In this document: positions 827-16,954 of the stretch, one piece after another | Layout of the letters: each line of letters opens with the position of its first letter | Position numbering within the stretch: the first letter of the stretch is position 1 | Assembly: GCF_003790525.1 (NCBI RefSeq) | Contig: NZ_CP033635.1 | Reading direction: 5' to 3' (one strand) | Length of the DNA: 64,000 nucleotides | DNA from: Escherichia coli | GTDB taxonomy: Bacteria > Pseudomonadota > Gammaproteobacteria > Enterobacterales > Enterobacteriaceae | Translations under genes and position numbers: made by a program | The notes under the pieces: model-generated | Told to the model about the DNA's origin: nothing | Database searches by the model: none | What the model saw: only the letters and a program-made list of their open reading frames with translations

Positions 827-854
827 TGATAAAACGCTCGCTGCGTTTTATCAG
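827..854. terminator. Bidirectional hairpin between convergent dtpD and phr
   Basis: Inverted repeat CTGATAAAACG...CGTTTTATCAG between the two stop codons. Confidence 0.6.
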
Positions 855-2269
855 GCTCCTTTCCTCGCTTCTTCGTACGCTGCCAGCGTTCGCAGCCTTG
901 CCTCTTTGTGATCAACTATCGGTTGCGGATAATCCAGCGTCACACCTGCTTTCTGCGCCCACTTCCACGGCTCATGCACCACTTTCCCTGGCACATCGCG
1001 CAGTTCCGGTAGCCACTGGCGGATAAACTCGCCTTCGCGGTCAAATTTCTCGCCCTGGGTTGTCGGGTTAAAAATACGAAAATACGGCGCTGCATCGGTT
1101 CCGGTTGAAGCGGCCCACTGCCAGCCACCGTTATTGGCTGCCAAATCACCATCAATCAGCTGCGACATGAAATATCGCTCACCTTCGCGCCAGTCGATCA
1201 ATAAATCTTTCACCAAAAAACTGGCTGTAATCATCCGTAGCCGGTTATGCATCCAGCCAGTGCTGTTAAGCTGACGCATGGCAGCATCAACAATCGGGTA
1301 TCCCGTTTTGCCTTCCTGCCAGGCCTTTAAATGCGCGGAATTGCTCTGCCACTGCACGCGGTCGGTCCAGACAATAAACGGACGATGTTTACACAGCGAG
1401 GGGTAATACGTTATCAGATGACGGTAAAACTCGCGCCAGATCAGCTCATTAAGCCAGATACTACCGGCCCCACCGTCCAGCGCCTGCGGCTGTTCCGCCA
1501 ACAGGCGATGCAAACACTGGCGAGGCGATAACCCGCCCGTTGCCAGGCTGGCGGACAAACGGCTGGTGCCTTCTACCGCAGGGAAATCTCGCTGTTGCTC
1601 ATACTCTCCGGCACCGTTCTGGCAAAACTGGCGTAATTGCGCAATCGCCGCTTTCTCTTCCACCGGGAAATGCGCAGTATCGAAAGGCTGACGAGGATAA
1701 TTCAGCGTAATGGATGGCGCGGGATCTATCGATCCGCTACTACGTACTTTTGGCGCAGCGACGCACTCCGGCATCCCTTCTCGCAGCCGTTTAAGCCAGG
1801 CGTTTTTAAATGGCGTAAAGACTTTGTACATCTCATGATTGCCAGTCATCACCGCCCCCGGCGGCAGGATCACGCCGTCGTCAAATCCTTCACACACCAC
1901 GTTACGCAGCGCCCTCTCAGCCTGCACATCCCGCGCCCGCTCATTCACCTCATACTGATAGTTATAAAACAGATGGGTAACACGATTTTCCGCGCACACC
2001 TGTTTAACTATTTCGACGCTGGCGGCAAAGTCATCCACTTCATGAAACAGCAAAGGAATGCCTTTTTCCGCCAGCGCGATTTGTAGCCCGTTCAGTTGTG
2101 CATTGATAAATTCAGCCTGACGCGGCGACATATTATGCGCCGCCCACTGGCGTGGGGTAGCGATATACAACGCCAGCACGCGCACAGACGAATTGCGGCA
2201 GGCGGCAGCCAGCGCGAGATTATCGTGCTGACGTAAATCCTGGCGAAACCAGACCAGATGGGTAGTCAT
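851..2269 (-). CDS. phr: Deoxyribodipyrimidine photolyase
   Basis: 472 aa ORF, N-terminus MTTHLVWFRQDLR, photolyase/FAD-binding C-terminal region; start overlaps ybgA stop (ATGA). Confidence 0.95.
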   Translation of the reverse strand: MTTHLVWFRQDLRQHDNLALAAACRNSSVRVLALYIATPRQWAAHNMSPRQAEFINAQLNGLQIALAEKGIPLLFHEVDDFAASVEIVKQVCAENRVTHLFYNYQYEVNERARDVQAERALRNVVCEGFDDGVILPPGAVMTGNHEMYKVFTPFKNAWLKRLREGMPECVAAPKVRSSGSIDPAPSITLNYPRQPFDTAHFPVEEKAAIAQLRQFCQNGAGEYEQQRDFPAVEGTSRLSASLATGGLSPRQCLHRLLAEQPQALDGGAGSIWLNELIWREFYRHLITYYPSLCKHRPFIVWTDRVQWQSNSAHLKAWQEGKTGYPIVDAAMRQLNSTGWMHNRLRMITASFLVKDLLIDWREGERYFMSQLIDGDLAANNGGWQWAASTGTDAAPYFRIFNPTTQGEKFDREGEFIRQWLPELRDVPGKVVHEPWKWAQKAGVTLDYPQPIVDHKEARLRTLAAYEEARKGA

Positions 2270-2775
2270 AAAACTCCTGAATGGCGCAAGTTAATCACAC
2301 ACGGCCAAAGTTCGAAATAACGCTGCACTGAAAGCCAGGCGTCAGGATAAAGCGCCATATAGTGTTTGATACGCATCAGCGGCGCAAGAAGTGGTTGCTC
2401 GCCACGGCGATAACTGTCGATAAGCGCAGCCAGCTGCTGGCGTTCTGTGGAATCAATATGAGGGCGAAAATAACCCTGAACGTGCATCAAAACGTTAGTA
2501 TGATCACGCCGGTTGGCAGGGTGAGAAAGCAAAACAATTACGCGTTGGCGGTACTGGTTGTAATAGTCATCCAGATTTTGCCACTGGTGAATATCAGCCA
2601 CAAACGGGCCAAGTTTGCGGTACTCGGGCTGGGAATGGGCCAGAAAGACGAGTTTATAGCGGCTGTGATAATCGAGAAGCGCCCCGCGCGTTAGTCCTCG
2701 ATCTTTGAGATTGTGTAACTCATGCAAAGCAAAAATGCGGATAAGGGTGCTGTCATCAAAAAGTTGTTGATTCAT
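2266..2775 (-). CDS. ybgA: DUF1722 protein YbgA, co-transcribed with phr
   Basis: 169 aa ORF matching E. coli YbgA; 4-bp overlap with phr start. Confidence 0.9.
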   Translation of the reverse strand: MNQQLFDDSTLIRIFALHELHNLKDRGLTRGALLDYHSRYKLVFLAHSQPEYRKLGPFVADIHQWQNLDDYYNQYRQRVIVLLSHPANRRDHTNVLMHVQGYFRPHIDSTERQQLAALIDSYRRGEQPLLAPLMRIKHYMALYPDAWLSVQRYFELWPCVINLRHSGVL

Positions 2776-2823
2776 TACTGCTCCTGAACGGTTTACAGGA
2801 GTAAGTGTAGACGCCGAAAAAAG

Positions 2824-2854
2824 AAAACCGCCAGCGTTTCCGCTGGCGGTTTTC
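2824..2854. terminator. Rho-independent terminator downstream of ybfA (hairpin flanked by A-run and T-run)
   Basis: AAAACCGCCAGCGTTTCCGCTGGCGGTTTTC: perfect 9-bp stem CCGCCAGCG/CGCTGGCGG with flanking A/T runs. Confidence 0.7.
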
Positions 2855-2875
2855 TTTGAACGTAATATTTAGCAA

Positions 2876-3082
2876 TCAGTAAAAATCACCCGTTGCCTTT
2901 TCGGCCTGATCCATCCACACCGGTTTCTCGCTGGTTTTCGACCAGACGCGGTGCAGGTAGCTGTAAAAGCGGGCGCGGTCTTTCCAGAAAAGCATGAAAG
3001 GCAGCGCCAGAACGCCCGCTGCAACCGCATAAGTACGGCGTAAAAAGATAAGCCATGCAGGATATTCTCTGTAGAGTTCCAT
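2876..3082 (-). CDS. ybfA: Small DUF2517 protein YbfA
   Basis: 68 aa [19 protein letters not shown]..., divergent from kdp promoter as in E. coli. Confidence 0.85.
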
Positions 3083-3294
3083 ACTTTTCTCCCCCTTTTG
3101 TATCTACCCGGTGAATGGCACCGGAAAAATGAATTTGTTTATCTGATGAAAATAGTACCGCCTTTTGTGTAATTTTACTACTCATCCGACCACTTATTTT
3201 TGTTTATTGATGGTTTATTTACATTCACTGTGTAATTAAGTTACACAAAAGTTAAATTAATACTAACCATTAGTTAAATCATGGCTTTTGCCAT

Positions 3295-3321
3295 TTTTAT
3301 ACTTTTTTTACACCCCGCCCG
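3295..3321 (+). promoter_or_regulatory. KdpE response-regulator binding site upstream of kdpFABC promoter
   Basis: TTTTTATACTTTTTTTACACCCCGCCCG, matches the T-rich/CCCCGCCC KdpE operator known from E. coli. Confidence 0.65.
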
Positions 3322-3328
3322 CAGATTT

Positions 3329-3360
3329 TTGCGAAATCTTTGCAGCCAGAATTCTACCCT
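3329..3360 (+). promoter_or_regulatory. Probable kdpFABC core promoter (TTGCGA ... TACCCT)
   Basis: -35-like TTGCGA and -10-like TACCCT downstream of KdpE site, about 35 bp upstream of kdpF GTG; exact spacing uncertain. Confidence 0.4.
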
Positions 3361-3394
3361 TCCGATATCACTTTTAGGCCACTGGAGGTGCACT

Positions 3395-3484
3395 GTGAGT
3401 GCAGGCGTGATAGCCGGCGTGTTGCTGGTGTTTTTATTACTGGGTTATCTGGTTTATGCCCTGATCAATGCGGAGGCGTTCTGA
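3395..3484 (+). CDS. kdpF: KdpF, 29-aa membrane subunit of Kdp K+-ATPase (GTG start)
   Basis: GTG AGT GCA GGC... encodes [29 protein letters not shown]; stop TGA overlaps kdpA ATG; too short for ORF track. Confidence 0.85.
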
Positions 3485-5157
3485 TGGCTGCGCAAGGGTT
3501 CTTACTGATTGCCACGTTTTTACTGGTGTTAATGGTGCTGGCACGTCCTTTAGGCAGCGGGCTGGCGCGGCTGATTAATGATATTCCTCTTCCTGGCACG
3601 ACGGGCGTTGAACGCGTACTCTTTAGCGCGCTTGGCGTCTCTGACCGCGAGATGAACTGGAAGCAGTATCTCTCTGCCATTCTCGGCCTGAACATGCTGG
3701 GGCTGGCGGTGCTGTTTTTTATGTTGCTCGGTCAGCACTATCTGCCGCTTAATCCACAGCAGTTGCCAGGGCTGTCATGGGATCTGGCGCTGAATACCGC
3801 CGTCAGCTTTGTCACCAATACCAACTGGCAATCTTATAGCGGTGAAACCACGTTGAGCTATTTCAGCCAGATGGCGGGCTTAACGGTGCAAAACTTTCTT
3901 TCTGCCGCCAGCGGGATTGCGGTGATTTTTGCCTTCATCCGTGCATTTACCCGCCAGAGCATGAGCACACTCGGGAATGCCTGGGTCGATCTGCTACGCA
4001 TCACGTTATGGGTGCTAGTCCCTGTGGCGTTGTTGATCGCACTGTTTTTTATTCAACAAGGTGCGCTGCAAAACTTTCTGCCCTATCAGGCGGTGAATAC
4101 CGTTGAAGGAGCGAAACAGCTGTTACCAATGGGTCCGGTGGCTTCTCAGGAAGCGATCAAGATGCTCGGCACTAACGGTGGTGGCTTCTTTAATGCCAAC
4201 TCGTCGCATCCATTTGAAAACCCAACCACACTGACCAACTTCGTGCAGATGCTGGCGATCTTCTTGATCCCAACAGCGCTGTGCTTTGCCTTTGGTGAAG
4301 TGGCGGGCGATCGCCGCCAGGGGCGCATGTTGCTGTGGGCGATGTCAGTGATTTTTGTCATCTGCGTAGGCGTAGTGATGTGGGCAGAAGTTCAGGGTAA
4401 TCCTCATCTGCTGGCGCTCGGCGCGGACAGCAGCATCAATATGGAAGGTAAAGAGAGCCGTTTCGGCGTGCTGGTCAGTAGCCTGTTTGCGGTCGTGACT
4501 ACGGCGGCTTCCTGCGGCGCGGTGATTGCGATGCATGATTCGTTTACCGCTCTTGGTGGCATGGTGCCGATGTGGTTGATGCAAATTGGTGAAGTGGTAT
4601 TCGGCGGCGTCGGTTCCGGCCTTTACGGCATGATGCTGTTTGTCCTGCTGGCGGTGTTTATTGCCGGGCTGATGATTGGTCGTACACCGGAATATCTGGG
4701 TAAAAAAATCGACGTACGCGAGATGAAACTGACTGCACTGGCGATTCTGGTCACCCCGACGCTGGTGCTGATGGGCGCGGCTCTGGCAATGATGACCGAC
4801 GCCGGACGTAGCGCCATGCTCAACCCTGGCCCGCATGGTTTTAGCGAAGTGCTGTACGCCGTGTCGTCCGCCGCTAACAACAACGGCAGCGCCTTTGCCG
4901 GATTAAGCGCCAACTCTCCGTTCTGGAACTGTTTACTGGCGTTCTGCATGTTTGTCGGTCGCTTCGGGGTGATTATCCCGGTGATGGCGATTGCCGGTTC
5001 GCTGGTGAGTAAAAAGAGCCAGCCCGCCAGCTCCGGTACACTGCCTACGCACGGCCCGCTGTTTGTTGGCCTGTTAATCGGCACCGTGTTGCTGGTTGGC
5101 GCACTGACCTTTATCCCTGCCCTGGCGCTTGGTCCGGTGGCGGAATATCTCTCCTGA
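3484..5157 (+). CDS. kdpA: Kdp K+-transporting ATPase subunit A
   Basis: 557 aa starting [14 protein letters not shown]; polytopic; ORF-track start 3340 is an upstream in-frame extension. Confidence 0.95.
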
Positions 5158-15496: not shown

Positions 15497-15618
15497 AAAA
15501 GTGGCAATGTATGGATAAAGTCATTTTTTATTCAAATATAAGGAACTTAATATTTAAAAAATGTCCCATACAATGCCTCATCATAAATGACACCGTAGCA
15601 CACAAGGAGCAAGTAGCG

Positions 15619-16269
15619 ATGCGTGAAGTGAGTCAGTTAGTAAATACTGAAGATTCAGCCTGGCCAATAATCCAGAATTGGTTAAAAGAAGCCACAAACC
15701 ATGCCGAACTCTTACCGGTTAATAAAGATTTAGCCGAAACCGCACTTTATCAATTACAGGTTACAACAAAATCACCGATGGGTGCGCTTGTCTATGGCTC
15801 CGGAGGTCTGCTGATTGATAACGGTTGGTTACGCATAGCAGGCTCTGGTCACCCCCGGTTACCACGAGATCCAGCAAGTTGGACACAACGCCCTGAATTC
15901 GCAAGCGTGCGGGCTTTACCCATCGCCGATGATGTCGCAGGGGGAATTTTTGCTCTTAATGGTGGCGATCTTGGGGAAGATACTGGCTGCGTTTATTATT
16001 TTGCGCCAGATACGCTGAATTGGGAAAGTCTGGAGGTTGGATATTCTGAGTTTCTTCAGTGGGCATTATCCGGTGATTTAGATACCTTCTATGAAAATGT
16101 ACGCTGGCCGCAATGGCAAGAAGACGTAATAAAATTATCGGCAACGGAAGCCTTCACTTTCTACCCTTTCTTATGGGTACAATGTGAAGAAGCAAGAACA
16201 AGAAAAGTTATTTCGCTTACTGAACTCTGGGAAATGCAGTATCAAATGAAAGAAACAATCACGCAATAA
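15619..16269 (+). CDS. ybfG: Uncharacterized protein YbfG-like (possibly DUF2625)
   Basis: ORF 15511..16269; start chosen at ATG 15619 preceded by AAGGAG; start uncertain; AT-rich gene. Confidence 0.6.
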   Translation: MREVSQLVNTEDSAWPIIQNWLKEATNHAELLPVNKDLAETALYQLQVTTKSPMGALVYGSGGLLIDNGWLRIAGSGHPRLPRDPASWTQRPEFASVRALPIADDVAGGIFALNGGDLGEDTGCVYYFAPDTLNWESLEVGYSEFLQWALSGDLDTFYENVRWPQWQEDVIKLSATEAFTFYPFLWVQCEEARTRKVISLTELWEMQYQMKETITQ

Positions 16270-16309
16270 GACATGTTCAGGTCCGGGTTTCATTCCCGGA
16301 CTCGCTATT

Positions 16310-16804
16310 TTAATGTGTGTTTATCGCTTTCAATTCTTGCTGGCAATTTTCTGACTGACAGCGTCGCAACTCAATAATCCCTACATGCATCATCGAGCCA
16401 AAAAATCCGCTTTCGCTGACATAATCCTCATTAACTAGCGGTCGAGTGCCGGGCTTACCCTGGCAAATCCCCATAAAAAATGAGGTGTAGCATTGCCATT
16501 CAGGATTTAAACCGGTCTTTTCTTGTGCTGACATATCATGAAGATAAGTAAGTTCTTTTTCGTTCCCGCCTGACAACTGCCAGCGGCGGGTATTATCAGG
16601 TAAGTTATCGCCACGGCAATTTGTCTTACACCGGGAAGGCGCAATATTTACCGTAATGCTCCCCGTTAATCCTCTGGTTTTATCTTTAGGGGTCAGTAAC
16701 CAGTCACCAGCTAATGATGATTGTTCAGGTTGGGCGCATGCTGTCAGCAGTAGTGTGGCGGTAATTAATGCCACTCTGACGACCAGACTCCTTTTGGTCT
16801 TCAT
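16310..16804 (-). CDS. ybfP: Uncharacterized lipoprotein YbfP
   Basis: 164 aa from MKTKRSLVVRVALITATLLLTAC (signal peptide plus lipobox LTAC); ORF-track extension to 16855 is an upstream in-frame start. Confidence 0.8.
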   Translation of the reverse strand: MKTKRSLVVRVALITATLLLTACAQPEQSSLAGDWLLTPKDKTRGLTGSITVNIAPSRCKTNCRGDNLPDNTRRWQLSGGNEKELTYLHDMSAQEKTGLNPEWQCYTSFFMGICQGKPGTRPLVNEDYVSESGFFGSMMHVGIIELRRCQSENCQQELKAINTH

Positions 16805-16854
16805 TTTGAATTCCCTTGAGCTATTCAGTTTGTTGGCAAAGTGCTCGTTGTTCA

Positions 16855-16954
16855 TGCCGGATGCGGCGTGAACGTCTTATCCGGCCTACAAAATCGCGTA
16901 AATTCAATATATTGCACCATCTTCCCAAGCCTGATAAGCGTAGCGCATCAGGCA
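16855..16954. repeat. REP elements (BIME-like pair) between ybfP and pgm
   Basis: GCCGGATGCGGCGTGAACGTCTTATCCGGCCTAC and GCCTGATAAGCGTAGCGCATCAGGC, typical REP palindromes. Confidence 0.7.

What the first reader, a model, noticed from the sequence alone, without database searches (positions are those of the whole stretch)
2776..2875. Compact ybgA/ybfA junction: no Rhs element where K-12 carries RhsC
Seen in sequence: only about 100 bp, containing one strong bidirectional hairpin, separate ybgA (start 2775) from ybfA (3' end 2876). Established knowledge, recalled not verified: in K-12 MG1655 this junction holds the RhsC element and associated ybf pseudogenes, several kb. This window therefore represents either the unoccupied site or a strain lacking the Rhs insertion; the junction is an integration point for accessory DNA. 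The ybgA-phr promoter must lie within or very near the ybfA terminator region.
Basis: partly seen in the sequence, partly recalled or inferred. Interest (0 to 1): 0.3.

Follow-up and report, generated by a model that had tools for sequence, protein, structure and literature searches.

The report
Unoccupied RhsC site, ybfA–ybgA junction
This 100-bp gap between two E. coli genes is the empty form of a chromosomal spot that in K-12 and about three quarters of sequenced E. coli carries a several-kilobase Rhs toxin island; it is a real but already known and ordinary presence/absence polymorphism.

Summary
The window is E. coli SMS-3-5 (100% match). ybgA starts at 2775 and ybfA ends at 2876, both on the minus strand. 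They are separated by exactly 100 bp holding one perfect 17-bp inverted repeat (2820-2857). Breakpoints map to window 2813-2823, between the U-tract of the ybfA terminator and a conserved TCTACACTTA box upstream of ybgA. No target-site duplication, terminal inverted repeat, integrase or tRNA is present. Among 5,426 complete E. coli genomes, 1,310 have the compact junction. 3,690 have the K-12-type ybfA|rhsC joint, 171 a 1.75-kb island with immunity-type genes and no Rhs core, and 146 a PAAR-Rhs island that also replaces the terminator. The compact layout is collinear with Enterobacter and Trabulsiella, so the architecture predates Escherichia. E. albertii, E. whittamii and two unnamed Escherichia isolates are occupied at the same ybgA-side breakpoint. 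The hairpin is best read as the ybfA intrinsic terminator, because B2 variants keep pairing only in the ybfA-sense RNA. The ybgA-phr promoter -10 lies 18 nt downstream of it. The locus is published as rhs "position 5" (Jackson 2009). Low interest.

The parts
2266..2775 (-). ybgA (YbgA, 169 aa, DUF1722 only), first gene of the ybgA-phr operon
   Evidence: ORF; RefSeq annotation; Pfam PF08349 E=5.9e-35
851..2269 (-). phr/phrB, deoxyribodipyrimidine photolyase; its start overlaps the ybgA stop by 4 nt
2776..2875 (.). 100-bp ybfA-ybgA intergenic region, the compact (Rhs-free) allele of the RhsC / rhs 'position 5' locus
2781..2785 (-). Shine-Dalgarno AGGAG of ybgA, 5 nt before the ATG
   Evidence: sequence; conserved in alignment A1
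2804..2809 (-). Putative -10 hexamer TACACT inside the conserved box TCTACACTTA (sigma-S-like); inferred ybgA-phr promoter
   Evidence: Conserved in all Escherichia alleles, Enterobacter and Trabulsiella; position analysis; ybgAp1 is listed as a sigma-38 promoter in bioRxiv 10.1101/2020.02.05.936344
2813..2823 (.). Breakpoint zone. In occupied strains the island lies between the sequence left of 2813 (ybgA side) and right of 2823 (ybfA side)
   Evidence: BLAST and manual alignments with MG1655 and four other occupied strains
2817..2857 (-). ybfA intrinsic terminator. The GC core stem is 2828-2836/2841-2849, the loop is GAAA, the stem extends to 2820-2857, and the U-tract UUUUCUUUUUU is at 2827-2817
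   Evidence: hairpin plus T-run are positionally conserved in Enterobacter and Trabulsiella; wobble-preserving variants in B2 strains
2876..3082 (-). ybfA (YbfA, 68 aa, DUF2517)
   Evidence: Pfam PF10725 E=1.2e-33
3395..3484 (+). kdpF, start of the divergently transcribed kdpFABCDE operon (flank marker of the locus)

Best explanation
Window 2776-2875 is the Rhs-free allele of the E. coli Rhs locus that holds RhsC in K-12 (rhs 'position 5', between kdp/ybfA and ybgA/phr). The 100 bp holds two functional signals packed back to back. The first is the rho-independent terminator of ybfA: a 9-bp GC core stem with a GAAA loop, extendable to 17 bp, followed by UUUUCUUUUUU. The second, 18 nt further on, is the -10 box TCTACACTTA, sigma-S type with no usable -35, of the ybgA-phr (photolyase) operon, followed by AGGAG and the ATG. 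In occupied strains the accessory island sits in the roughly 11-nt gap between the U-tract and that box. The compact architecture is the older one, because it is shared with other genera. Island-bearing and island-free alleles both circulate in Escherichia. They are most likely exchanged by homologous recombination through the conserved flanks rather than by site-specific integration or excision. Shown here: the coordinates, the hairpin, the K-12 comparison, the breakpoints, the population counts and the collinearity with outgroups. Inferred: terminator activity, the promoter assignment, the recombination mechanism, and whether the SMS-3-5 lineage was never occupied.
For: The window is identical to SMS-3-5 and the genes are annotated as stated. 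MG1655 has a 9,660-bp gap containing rhsC through ybfD. Homology to K-12 resumes at window 2824 on the ybfA side. On the ybgA side it holds firmly through 2812 and only weakly to 2823. Four further occupied strains, plus O157:H7 and APEC E123, share the ybgA-side breakpoint ...|CGTCTACAC. Counts in 5,426 genomes are 1,310 compact, 3,690 K-12-type left joint, 171 small island and 146 PAAR-Rhs type. Enterobacter JUb54 and Trabulsiella show the same order: stop, GC hairpin, T-run, about 10 nt, TACACTTA, SD, ATG. The island ends carry no direct or inverted repeats beyond 9-nt chance matches. There is no tRNA and no integrase in the annotated islands. Hairpin stability is z = -6.2. B2 variants change the arm to G.U and U.G pairs only in the ybfA-sense RNA. 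Both flank haplotypes occur with both occupancy states: 042 is empty with K-12-type flanks, and 23AR0303 is occupied with an SMS-type ybfA flank. That pattern fits recombinational shuffling. Jackson et al. 2009 (PMC2935791) list this locus and its variable occupancy.
Against: E. albertii, E. whittamii and two unnamed Escherichia isolates are occupied at the same ybgA-side breakpoint. Jackson et al. inferred that ancestral E. coli already carried rhs here, so the SMS-3-5 lineage may have lost the island secondarily rather than never having had it. The -35 region of the proposed promoter is essentially absent in the compact allele, 0-3 of 6 matches. The generic sigma-70 scan found no promoter. 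No transcription start data were available to me. ybgA-phr could also be fed by read-through from ybfA.
Confidence: 0.88

Rival explanations
1. The compact junction is a secondary loss. The Escherichia ancestor already had an Rhs island here, and the lineage leading to SMS-3-5 (and to B2/D/F strains) lost it again, restoring a clean junction.
For: Other Escherichia species and isolates are occupied with the identical ybgA-side breakpoint. Jackson 2009 infers an ancestral rhs at position 5, with a complete gene in E. albertii. Strain 042 is empty but carries K-12-type flanking alleles on both sides. A 1.75-kb island with immunity-type genes and no Rhs core exists in 171 genomes; it might be a decayed Rhs island, but that was not tested.
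Against: The compact junction has no scar and is collinear, element by element, with Enterobacter and Trabulsiella. No flanking repeats exist that could drive a precise deletion. Two divergent GTDB 'E. coli' representatives, E69 and SCPM-O-B-8794, are also compact. A loss would therefore have to happen by recombination with a pre-existing empty allele, which still makes the allele itself ancestral in type.
Confidence: 0.3
2. The hairpin is a dedicated attachment or target site for a mobile element: site-specific integration of Rhs islands or of the ISAs1-type H-repeat.
For: Several different islands end at nearly the same nucleotides on both sides. The ybgA-proximal end of most islands is an ISAs1-family (ybfD / H-repeat) element with a conserved terminal motif CACAAAnnTCATTTnnnAn.
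Against: There is no target-site duplication or terminal inverted repeat, no integrase and no tRNA. The hairpin is retained intact on the ybfA side in K-12-type islands. It is replaced by another hairpin in the PAAR-Rhs type, so the ybfA-side boundary is not fixed. Coincident boundaries are equally explained by one old insertion that later diversified internally and spread by flank recombination.
Confidence: 0.07
3. The hairpin acts as a true bidirectional terminator or as a regulatory RNA element, such as an sRNA 3' end or an attenuator of ybgA-phr.
For: A-tract and T-tract flank the stem symmetrically, and both strands fold equally well.
Against: No gene converges on the hairpin from the plus-strand side. 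B2 variants keep pairing only in the ybfA-sense RNA. No Rfam family reaches its threshold. In K-12 the hairpin is 9.6 kb away from ybgA, yet ybgA-phr is retained, so it is not an obligatory leader of ybgA.
Confidence: 0.05

Closest known systems
RhsC element of E. coli K-12 / rhs 'position 5' (kdpA-phr) of Jackson et al. 2009, BMC Genomics 10:584 (PMC2935791)
   Same: Same chromosomal locus and flanking genes. The window is the island-free allele of exactly this site.
   Different: The window contains no RHS-repeat gene, immunity gene or H-repeat. Only the 100-bp ancestral-type spacer is present.
Rhs-free strains of the ECOR collection (Hill et al. 1995, Genetics 141:15; recalled from memory, not held in the library)
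   Same: A presence/absence polymorphism of Rhs elements that correlates with E. coli lineages.
   Different: I could not read the paper here, so I cannot say whether this exact joint was sequenced there.
Rho-independent (intrinsic) terminators
   Same: A GC-rich stem, a GNRA-type loop, and a U-tract directly after the stem on the sense strand, 18 nt after the ybfA stop codon.
   Different: Activity is not measured. Symmetric A/T tracts give it a bidirectional look that is probably incidental.
Sigma-S dependent promoters (extended -10 consensus TCTATACTTAA, recalled from Weber et al. 2005); ybgAp1 of RegulonDB as cited in bioRxiv 10.1101/2020.02.05.936344
   Same: TCTACACTTAC matches 9 of 11 positions, including the C at -13. 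There is no -35 in the compact allele, as is typical for sigma-S promoters.
   Different: The mapped start site of ybgAp1 was not available to me. In K-12 a -35-like TTCACA (19-bp spacer) is supplied by the island end and is absent from the window.

Membership tests
Unoccupied allele of the RhsC / rhs position-5 locus | Flanked by kdpF-ybfA on one side and ybgA-phr-dtpD on the other, in the K-12 order | tested here: met
Unoccupied allele of the RhsC / rhs position-5 locus | K-12 carries rhsC and associated genes between the same two genes | tested here: met
   9,660 bp between ybfA and ybgA in NC_000913.3, holding rhsC, ybfB, ybfO, ybfC, ybfQ, ybfL and ybfD
Unoccupied allele of the RhsC / rhs position-5 locus | No Rhs core, toxin tip, immunity gene or H-repeat remnant in the spacer | tested here: met
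   The 100 bp aligns fully to the two K-12 flanks except for about 11 nt at the breakpoint. It is collinear with the outgroup spacers.
Rho-independent terminator (of ybfA) | Stable GC-rich stem-loop directly followed by a U-tract on the sense strand, downstream of the stop codon | tested here: met
Rho-independent terminator (of ybfA) | Pairing maintained by selection in the transcribed orientation | tested here: met
   The ST1193, ZLWT and Z135-1 variants give G.U and U.G pairs in the ybfA-sense RNA and C.A and A.C mismatches on the other strand. This rests on only two variable positions, so the support is weak.
Rho-independent terminator (of ybfA) | Transcripts actually end there | not testable with these tools
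   Needs Term-seq or 3' RACE
Sigma-S type promoter of ybgA-phr (ybgAp1) | -10 element resembling TCTATACTTAA at a suitable distance from the start codon | tested here: met
   TCTACACTTAC lies at -37 to -27 from the ATG and is conserved across three genera. The consensus is recalled from memory.
Sigma-S type promoter of ybgA-phr (ybgAp1) | Mapped transcription start and RpoS dependence | not testable with these tools
   Only an indirect literature mention that ybgAp1 is in the sigma-38 promoter set
Site-specific integration site (attB of a genomic island) | Direct repeats (att or target duplication) flanking the island in occupied strains | tested here: not met
   only 9-nt or shorter chance matches between the two K-12 island ends
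Site-specific integration site (attB of a genomic island) | Integrase or recombinase in the island, or a tRNA/tmRNA target | tested here: not met
   Annotations show only ISAs1-family transposase genes or fragments. No tRNA.

The most novel reading that the evidence does not exclude
Occupancy of this site may rewire photolyase expression. In the compact allele the ybgA-phr promoter has only a sigma-S-type -10, pressed against the ybfA terminator, so read-through from ybfA is possible. In K-12-type strains the ISAs1/H-repeat end of the island supplies a -35-like TTCACA and removes the terminator from the vicinity. Together with the identical breakpoint in several Escherichia species, this would make the locus a long-lived trans-species presence/absence polymorphism with a regulatory side effect on light-dependent DNA repair.
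Probability: 0.2. Interest if true: 0.35.

Novelty: already known. Interest (0 to 1): 0.13.

Why it matters
It matters little beyond correct annotation. The result confirms that the window strain (SMS-3-5) carries the Rhs-free allele of a well-known variable locus. It also gives nucleotide-level breakpoints and genome-scale frequencies. These are 24% empty, 68% K-12-type RhsC joint, and about 3% each for two other island types, with roughly 2% of genomes unassigned. This could serve as a typing marker or as a clean natural example of accessory DNA wedged between a terminator and the next promoter. The only mildly new angle is that the island end changes the sequence context of the photolyase operon promoter.

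Tried and rejected
1. The generic promoter/terminator scan found neither the hairpin nor a sigma-70 promoter. It was replaced by direct folding and comparative analysis.

2. I searched for target-site duplications or terminal inverted repeats at the K-12 island ends and around the intact ISAs1 copy of O157:H7. Nothing convincing appeared, so the exact IS end could not be defined.

3. The Rfam scan of 2500-3500 gave only sub-threshold, generic hairpin matches.

4. Literature searches for a mapped ybgA/phr promoter produced only an indirect mention of ybgAp1 as a sigma-38 promoter. Hill et al. 1995 is not held. The Shimada 2017 SELEX hits near ybfA/rhsC concern K-12 island DNA and do not bear on the compact junction.

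5. I tested whether flank haplotype predicts occupancy, as hitch-hiking with the island would suggest. It does not do so cleanly: 042 is empty with K-12-type flanks, and 23AR0303 is occupied with an SMS-type ybfA flank.

6. In the bin-wise identity comparison to K-12, the bins 276-475 and 676-875 are alignment artefacts of my coordinate offset. They should be ignored.

Full report
**Identity of the window and check of the observation**

A 1,100-bp query centred on the finding is 100% identical to E. coli SMS-3-5 (NC_010498.1, reverse strand). The ORF list and the RefSeq annotation of that segment give the following layout:
- dtpD (+)
- phr at 851-2269 (-)
- ybgA at 2266-2775 (-)
- ybfA at 2876-3082 (-)
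- kdpF from 3395 (+)

The ybgA/ybfA spacer is therefore exactly 2776-2875, 100 bp. It holds one perfect inverted repeat, arms 2820-2836 and 2841-2857 with a 4-nt loop. As RNA the ybfA-sense strand folds at -32.9 kcal/mol and the other strand at -34.0 kcal/mol. The z-scores are -6.2 and -6.9, and none of 200 shuffles did as well. The hairpin is single-copy in the window. It matches no Rfam family at threshold.

**Comparison with K-12**

In MG1655 ybfA ends at 729340 and ybgA starts at 739001. Between them lie rhsC, ybfB, ybfO (pseudogene), ybfC, ybfQ, ybfL (pseudogene) and ybfD. BLAST and manual register alignments place the breakpoints as follows:
- The ybfA side of K-12 matches the window from 2824 rightwards, so the hairpin stays with ybfA.
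- The ybgA side matches firmly through 2812 (…GTGTAGACG). It matches only weakly, 7 of 11 positions, up to 2823.
- The extra DNA in K-12 is about 9.56 kb.
- The breakpoint zone is 2813-2823. This is the roughly 11 nt between the terminator U-tract and the box CGTCTACACTT.

The two island ends share no direct or inverted repeats beyond 9-nt chance matches. No tRNA lies nearby. The annotated islands carry no integrase, only ISAs1-family (H-repeat) transposase genes or fragments.

**What occupies the site across E. coli**

| Class | Genomes of 5,426 | Source |
|---|---|---|
| Uninterrupted (compact) junction | 1,310 | |
| K-12-type ybfA\|rhsC joint | 3,690 | |
| 1.75-kb island, immunity-type genes, no Rhs core (MS1050 type) | 171 | |
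| DcrB-related fragment plus 1,559-aa PAAR-Rhs protein | 146 | |

- These four classes account for about 98% of genomes.
- The small island encodes a CdiI_3 protein, a weak sub-threshold SUKH-1/SMI1 match and one unassigned ORF.
- The PAAR-Rhs island replaces the ybfA terminator with a different hairpin. Its ybfA-side boundary sits right after the ybfA stop codon.
- All occupied alleles examined share the ybgA-side breakpoint …|CGTCTACAC. This includes O157:H7 and APEC E123, whose terminal island sequence differs from K-12's.
- The site is therefore a hypervariable Rhs locus, and the window shows its minority, empty form.
- Jackson et al. 2009 (PMC2935791) list it as rhs position 5, between kdpA and phr. 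They note that it is widely but not universally occupied and that one group of pathogenic strains lacks the clade I expansion.

**Which state is older**

A scan of species-representative genomes with YbgA returned 15 loci.
- In Enterobacter sp. JUb54 and Trabulsiella odontotermitis, ybfA and ybgA are 80-100 bp apart.
- Their spacers align element by element with the E. coli compact spacer: stop codon, GC-rich hairpin, T-run, about 10 nt, TACACTTA, Shine-Dalgarno, ATG (alignment A1).
- In Dickeya, Erwinia, Pragia, Budvicia and Samsonia, ybfA lies further upstream. For Dickeya this is because the ybgA homologue is longer: its 319-aa ORF has a 2-thiouracil desulfurase (PF04463) domain followed by DUF1722. 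In the other genera the reading frame also stays open upstream of the YbgA match. E. coli YbgA has only DUF1722.

The compact architecture therefore predates Escherichia. On the other hand, E. albertii, E. whittamii and two unnamed Escherichia isolates (E1V33, MOD1-EC7003) are occupied at the same ybgA-side breakpoint. Their island termini are related, with the motif CACAAAnnTCATTT…. Jackson et al. inferred that ancestral E. coli already had rhs here. Two divergent GTDB "E. coli" representatives, E69 and SCPM-O-B-8794, are compact.

Flank haplotypes do not track occupancy:
- Strain 042 is empty but has K-12-type alleles on both sides.
- Strain 23AR0303 is occupied but has the SMS-type ybfA flank.

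My reading is that the empty allele is ancestral in type, because it has no scar and no repeats that could mediate a precise excision. Both alleles have coexisted in Escherichia and have been shuffled by homologous recombination through the flanks. Whether the SMS-3-5 lineage itself was ever occupied cannot be decided here; I give secondary loss about 0.3. The ybgA-phr flank is more diverged between SMS-3-5 and K-12 (about 85-98% per 200 bp) than the kdp flank (about 94-99%). That is compatible with repeated recombination next to the hotspot.

**How the 100 bp most likely works**

On the ybfA-sense (minus) strand the transcript reads: stop codon, 18 nt, AAAGAAAA-CCGCCAGCG-GAAA-CGCTGGCGG-UUUUCUUUUUU. 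This is a textbook intrinsic terminator. In ST1193, ZLWT and Z135-1 the 5' arm reads CCGCCGGUG. That still pairs with CGCUGGCGG through G.U and U.G wobbles in this orientation, but it would give C.A and A.C mismatches in the opposite-strand RNA. No gene converges on the hairpin from the plus-strand side. So "bidirectional" describes its shape, not a demonstrated function.

Eighteen nucleotides after the stem comes TCTACACTTA, with TACACT at 2809-2804. This box is conserved in every Escherichia allele and in Enterobacter (TCTACACTTA) and Trabulsiella (TTTACACTTA). It lies 34 nt before the ATG and is followed by AGGAG. It matches the sigma-S extended -10 consensus TCTATACTTAA (recalled from memory) at 9 of 11 positions. 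ybgAp1 is included in a published set of 169 sigma-38 promoters.

In the compact allele the -35 position falls in the 3' arm of the terminator stem and has 0-3 of 6 matches to TTGACA. In K-12 the corresponding position lies in the island end and reads TTCACA at 19-bp spacing. This may explain why ybgAp1 was one of only two sigma-38 promoters with a recognisable -35 in that study. Whether this changes photolyase expression is untested.

**Comparison with known systems and verdict**

The feature is the island-free allele of the RhsC locus, plus an ordinary terminator and promoter pair. All membership features that could be tested for "empty RhsC site" and "intrinsic terminator" were met. Those for a site-specific attachment site were tested and not met. 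The locus, its variable occupancy and its presence in E. albertii are published (Jackson 2009). Rhs-free E. coli lineages have been described since the 1990s (Hill et al. 1995, from memory; the paper could not be opened). Novelty: already known. Interest: low (0.13).

Noticed in passing
window 2266-2775; L020 2524-3483 (Dickeya undicola): E. coli YbgA (169 aa) has only DUF1722. The Dickeya homologue is a 319-aa fusion of a 2-thiouracil desulfurase (PF04463) domain and DUF1722, and in Erwinia, Pragia, Budvicia and Samsonia the reading frame also stays open upstream of the YbgA match. E. coli residue 8 aligns to about residue 160 of the long form. The Escherichia/Enterobacter/Trabulsiella lineage therefore lost the N-terminal domain exactly at what is now the ybfA-ybgA junction.
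   Followed up: partly
L001 11925-11952 (MG1655, island end just upstream of ybgA); window 2827-2832 equivalent: In K-12 a -35-like TTCACA, 19 bp upstream of the conserved TACACT, lies inside the H-repeat/ISAs1-side end of the Rhs island. In the compact allele that position is the terminator stem. A published analysis found ybgAp1 to be one of only two sigma-38 promoters with a -35 hit.
   Followed up: partly
L008-L010 positions about 840-880 (ST1193, ZLWT, Z135-1): These compact strains carry two substitutions in one arm of the ybfA hairpin. The substitutions keep pairing as G.U wobbles only in the ybfA-sense RNA.
   Followed up: yes
L004 14309-16057 (MS1050; 171 genomes): A 1.75-kb island with immunity-type genes and no Rhs core occupies the same site with nearly the same boundaries. 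It encodes a CdiI_3 protein, a weak SUKH-1-like match and one unknown ORF. Part of it (query 1517-1698) is repeated elsewhere in E. coli genomes.
   Followed up: partly
L005 15003-16004 and L006 31217-32218: A PAAR-containing Rhs island preceded by a DcrB-related gene fragment replaces the ybfA terminator with a different hairpin (CCAGCC…GGCTGG). It occurs in 146 genomes and may correspond to the non-clade-I rhs that Jackson 2009 reported at position 5 in Shigella flexneri.
   Followed up: no
L027 2440-2520 (O157:H7 Z1834) versus L012 1-123 (E. albertii): The island terminus next to ybgA in O157:H7 (…CCCCACAAAATTCATTTACCAT|CGTC) is nearly identical to that of E. albertii and differs from K-12's. 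This hints at interspecies exchange of the island end.
   Followed up: no
window 851-2812 versus MG1655: ybgA-phr is unusually diverged and mosaic among E. coli, with 85-100% identity per 100-bp bin. The first 200 nt of ybgA fall into two allele classes. The kdp side is less diverged.
   Followed up: partly
window about 15500-16900 (SMS-3-5 record 714648-716090); L004 24454-24948: The region between kdpE/potE and pgm is a second small variable spot. SMS-3-5 has a DUF2625 gene, a hypothetical gene and a wHTH pseudogene after potE. Strain MS1050 lacks speF-potE altogether between kdpE and pgm.
   Followed up: no
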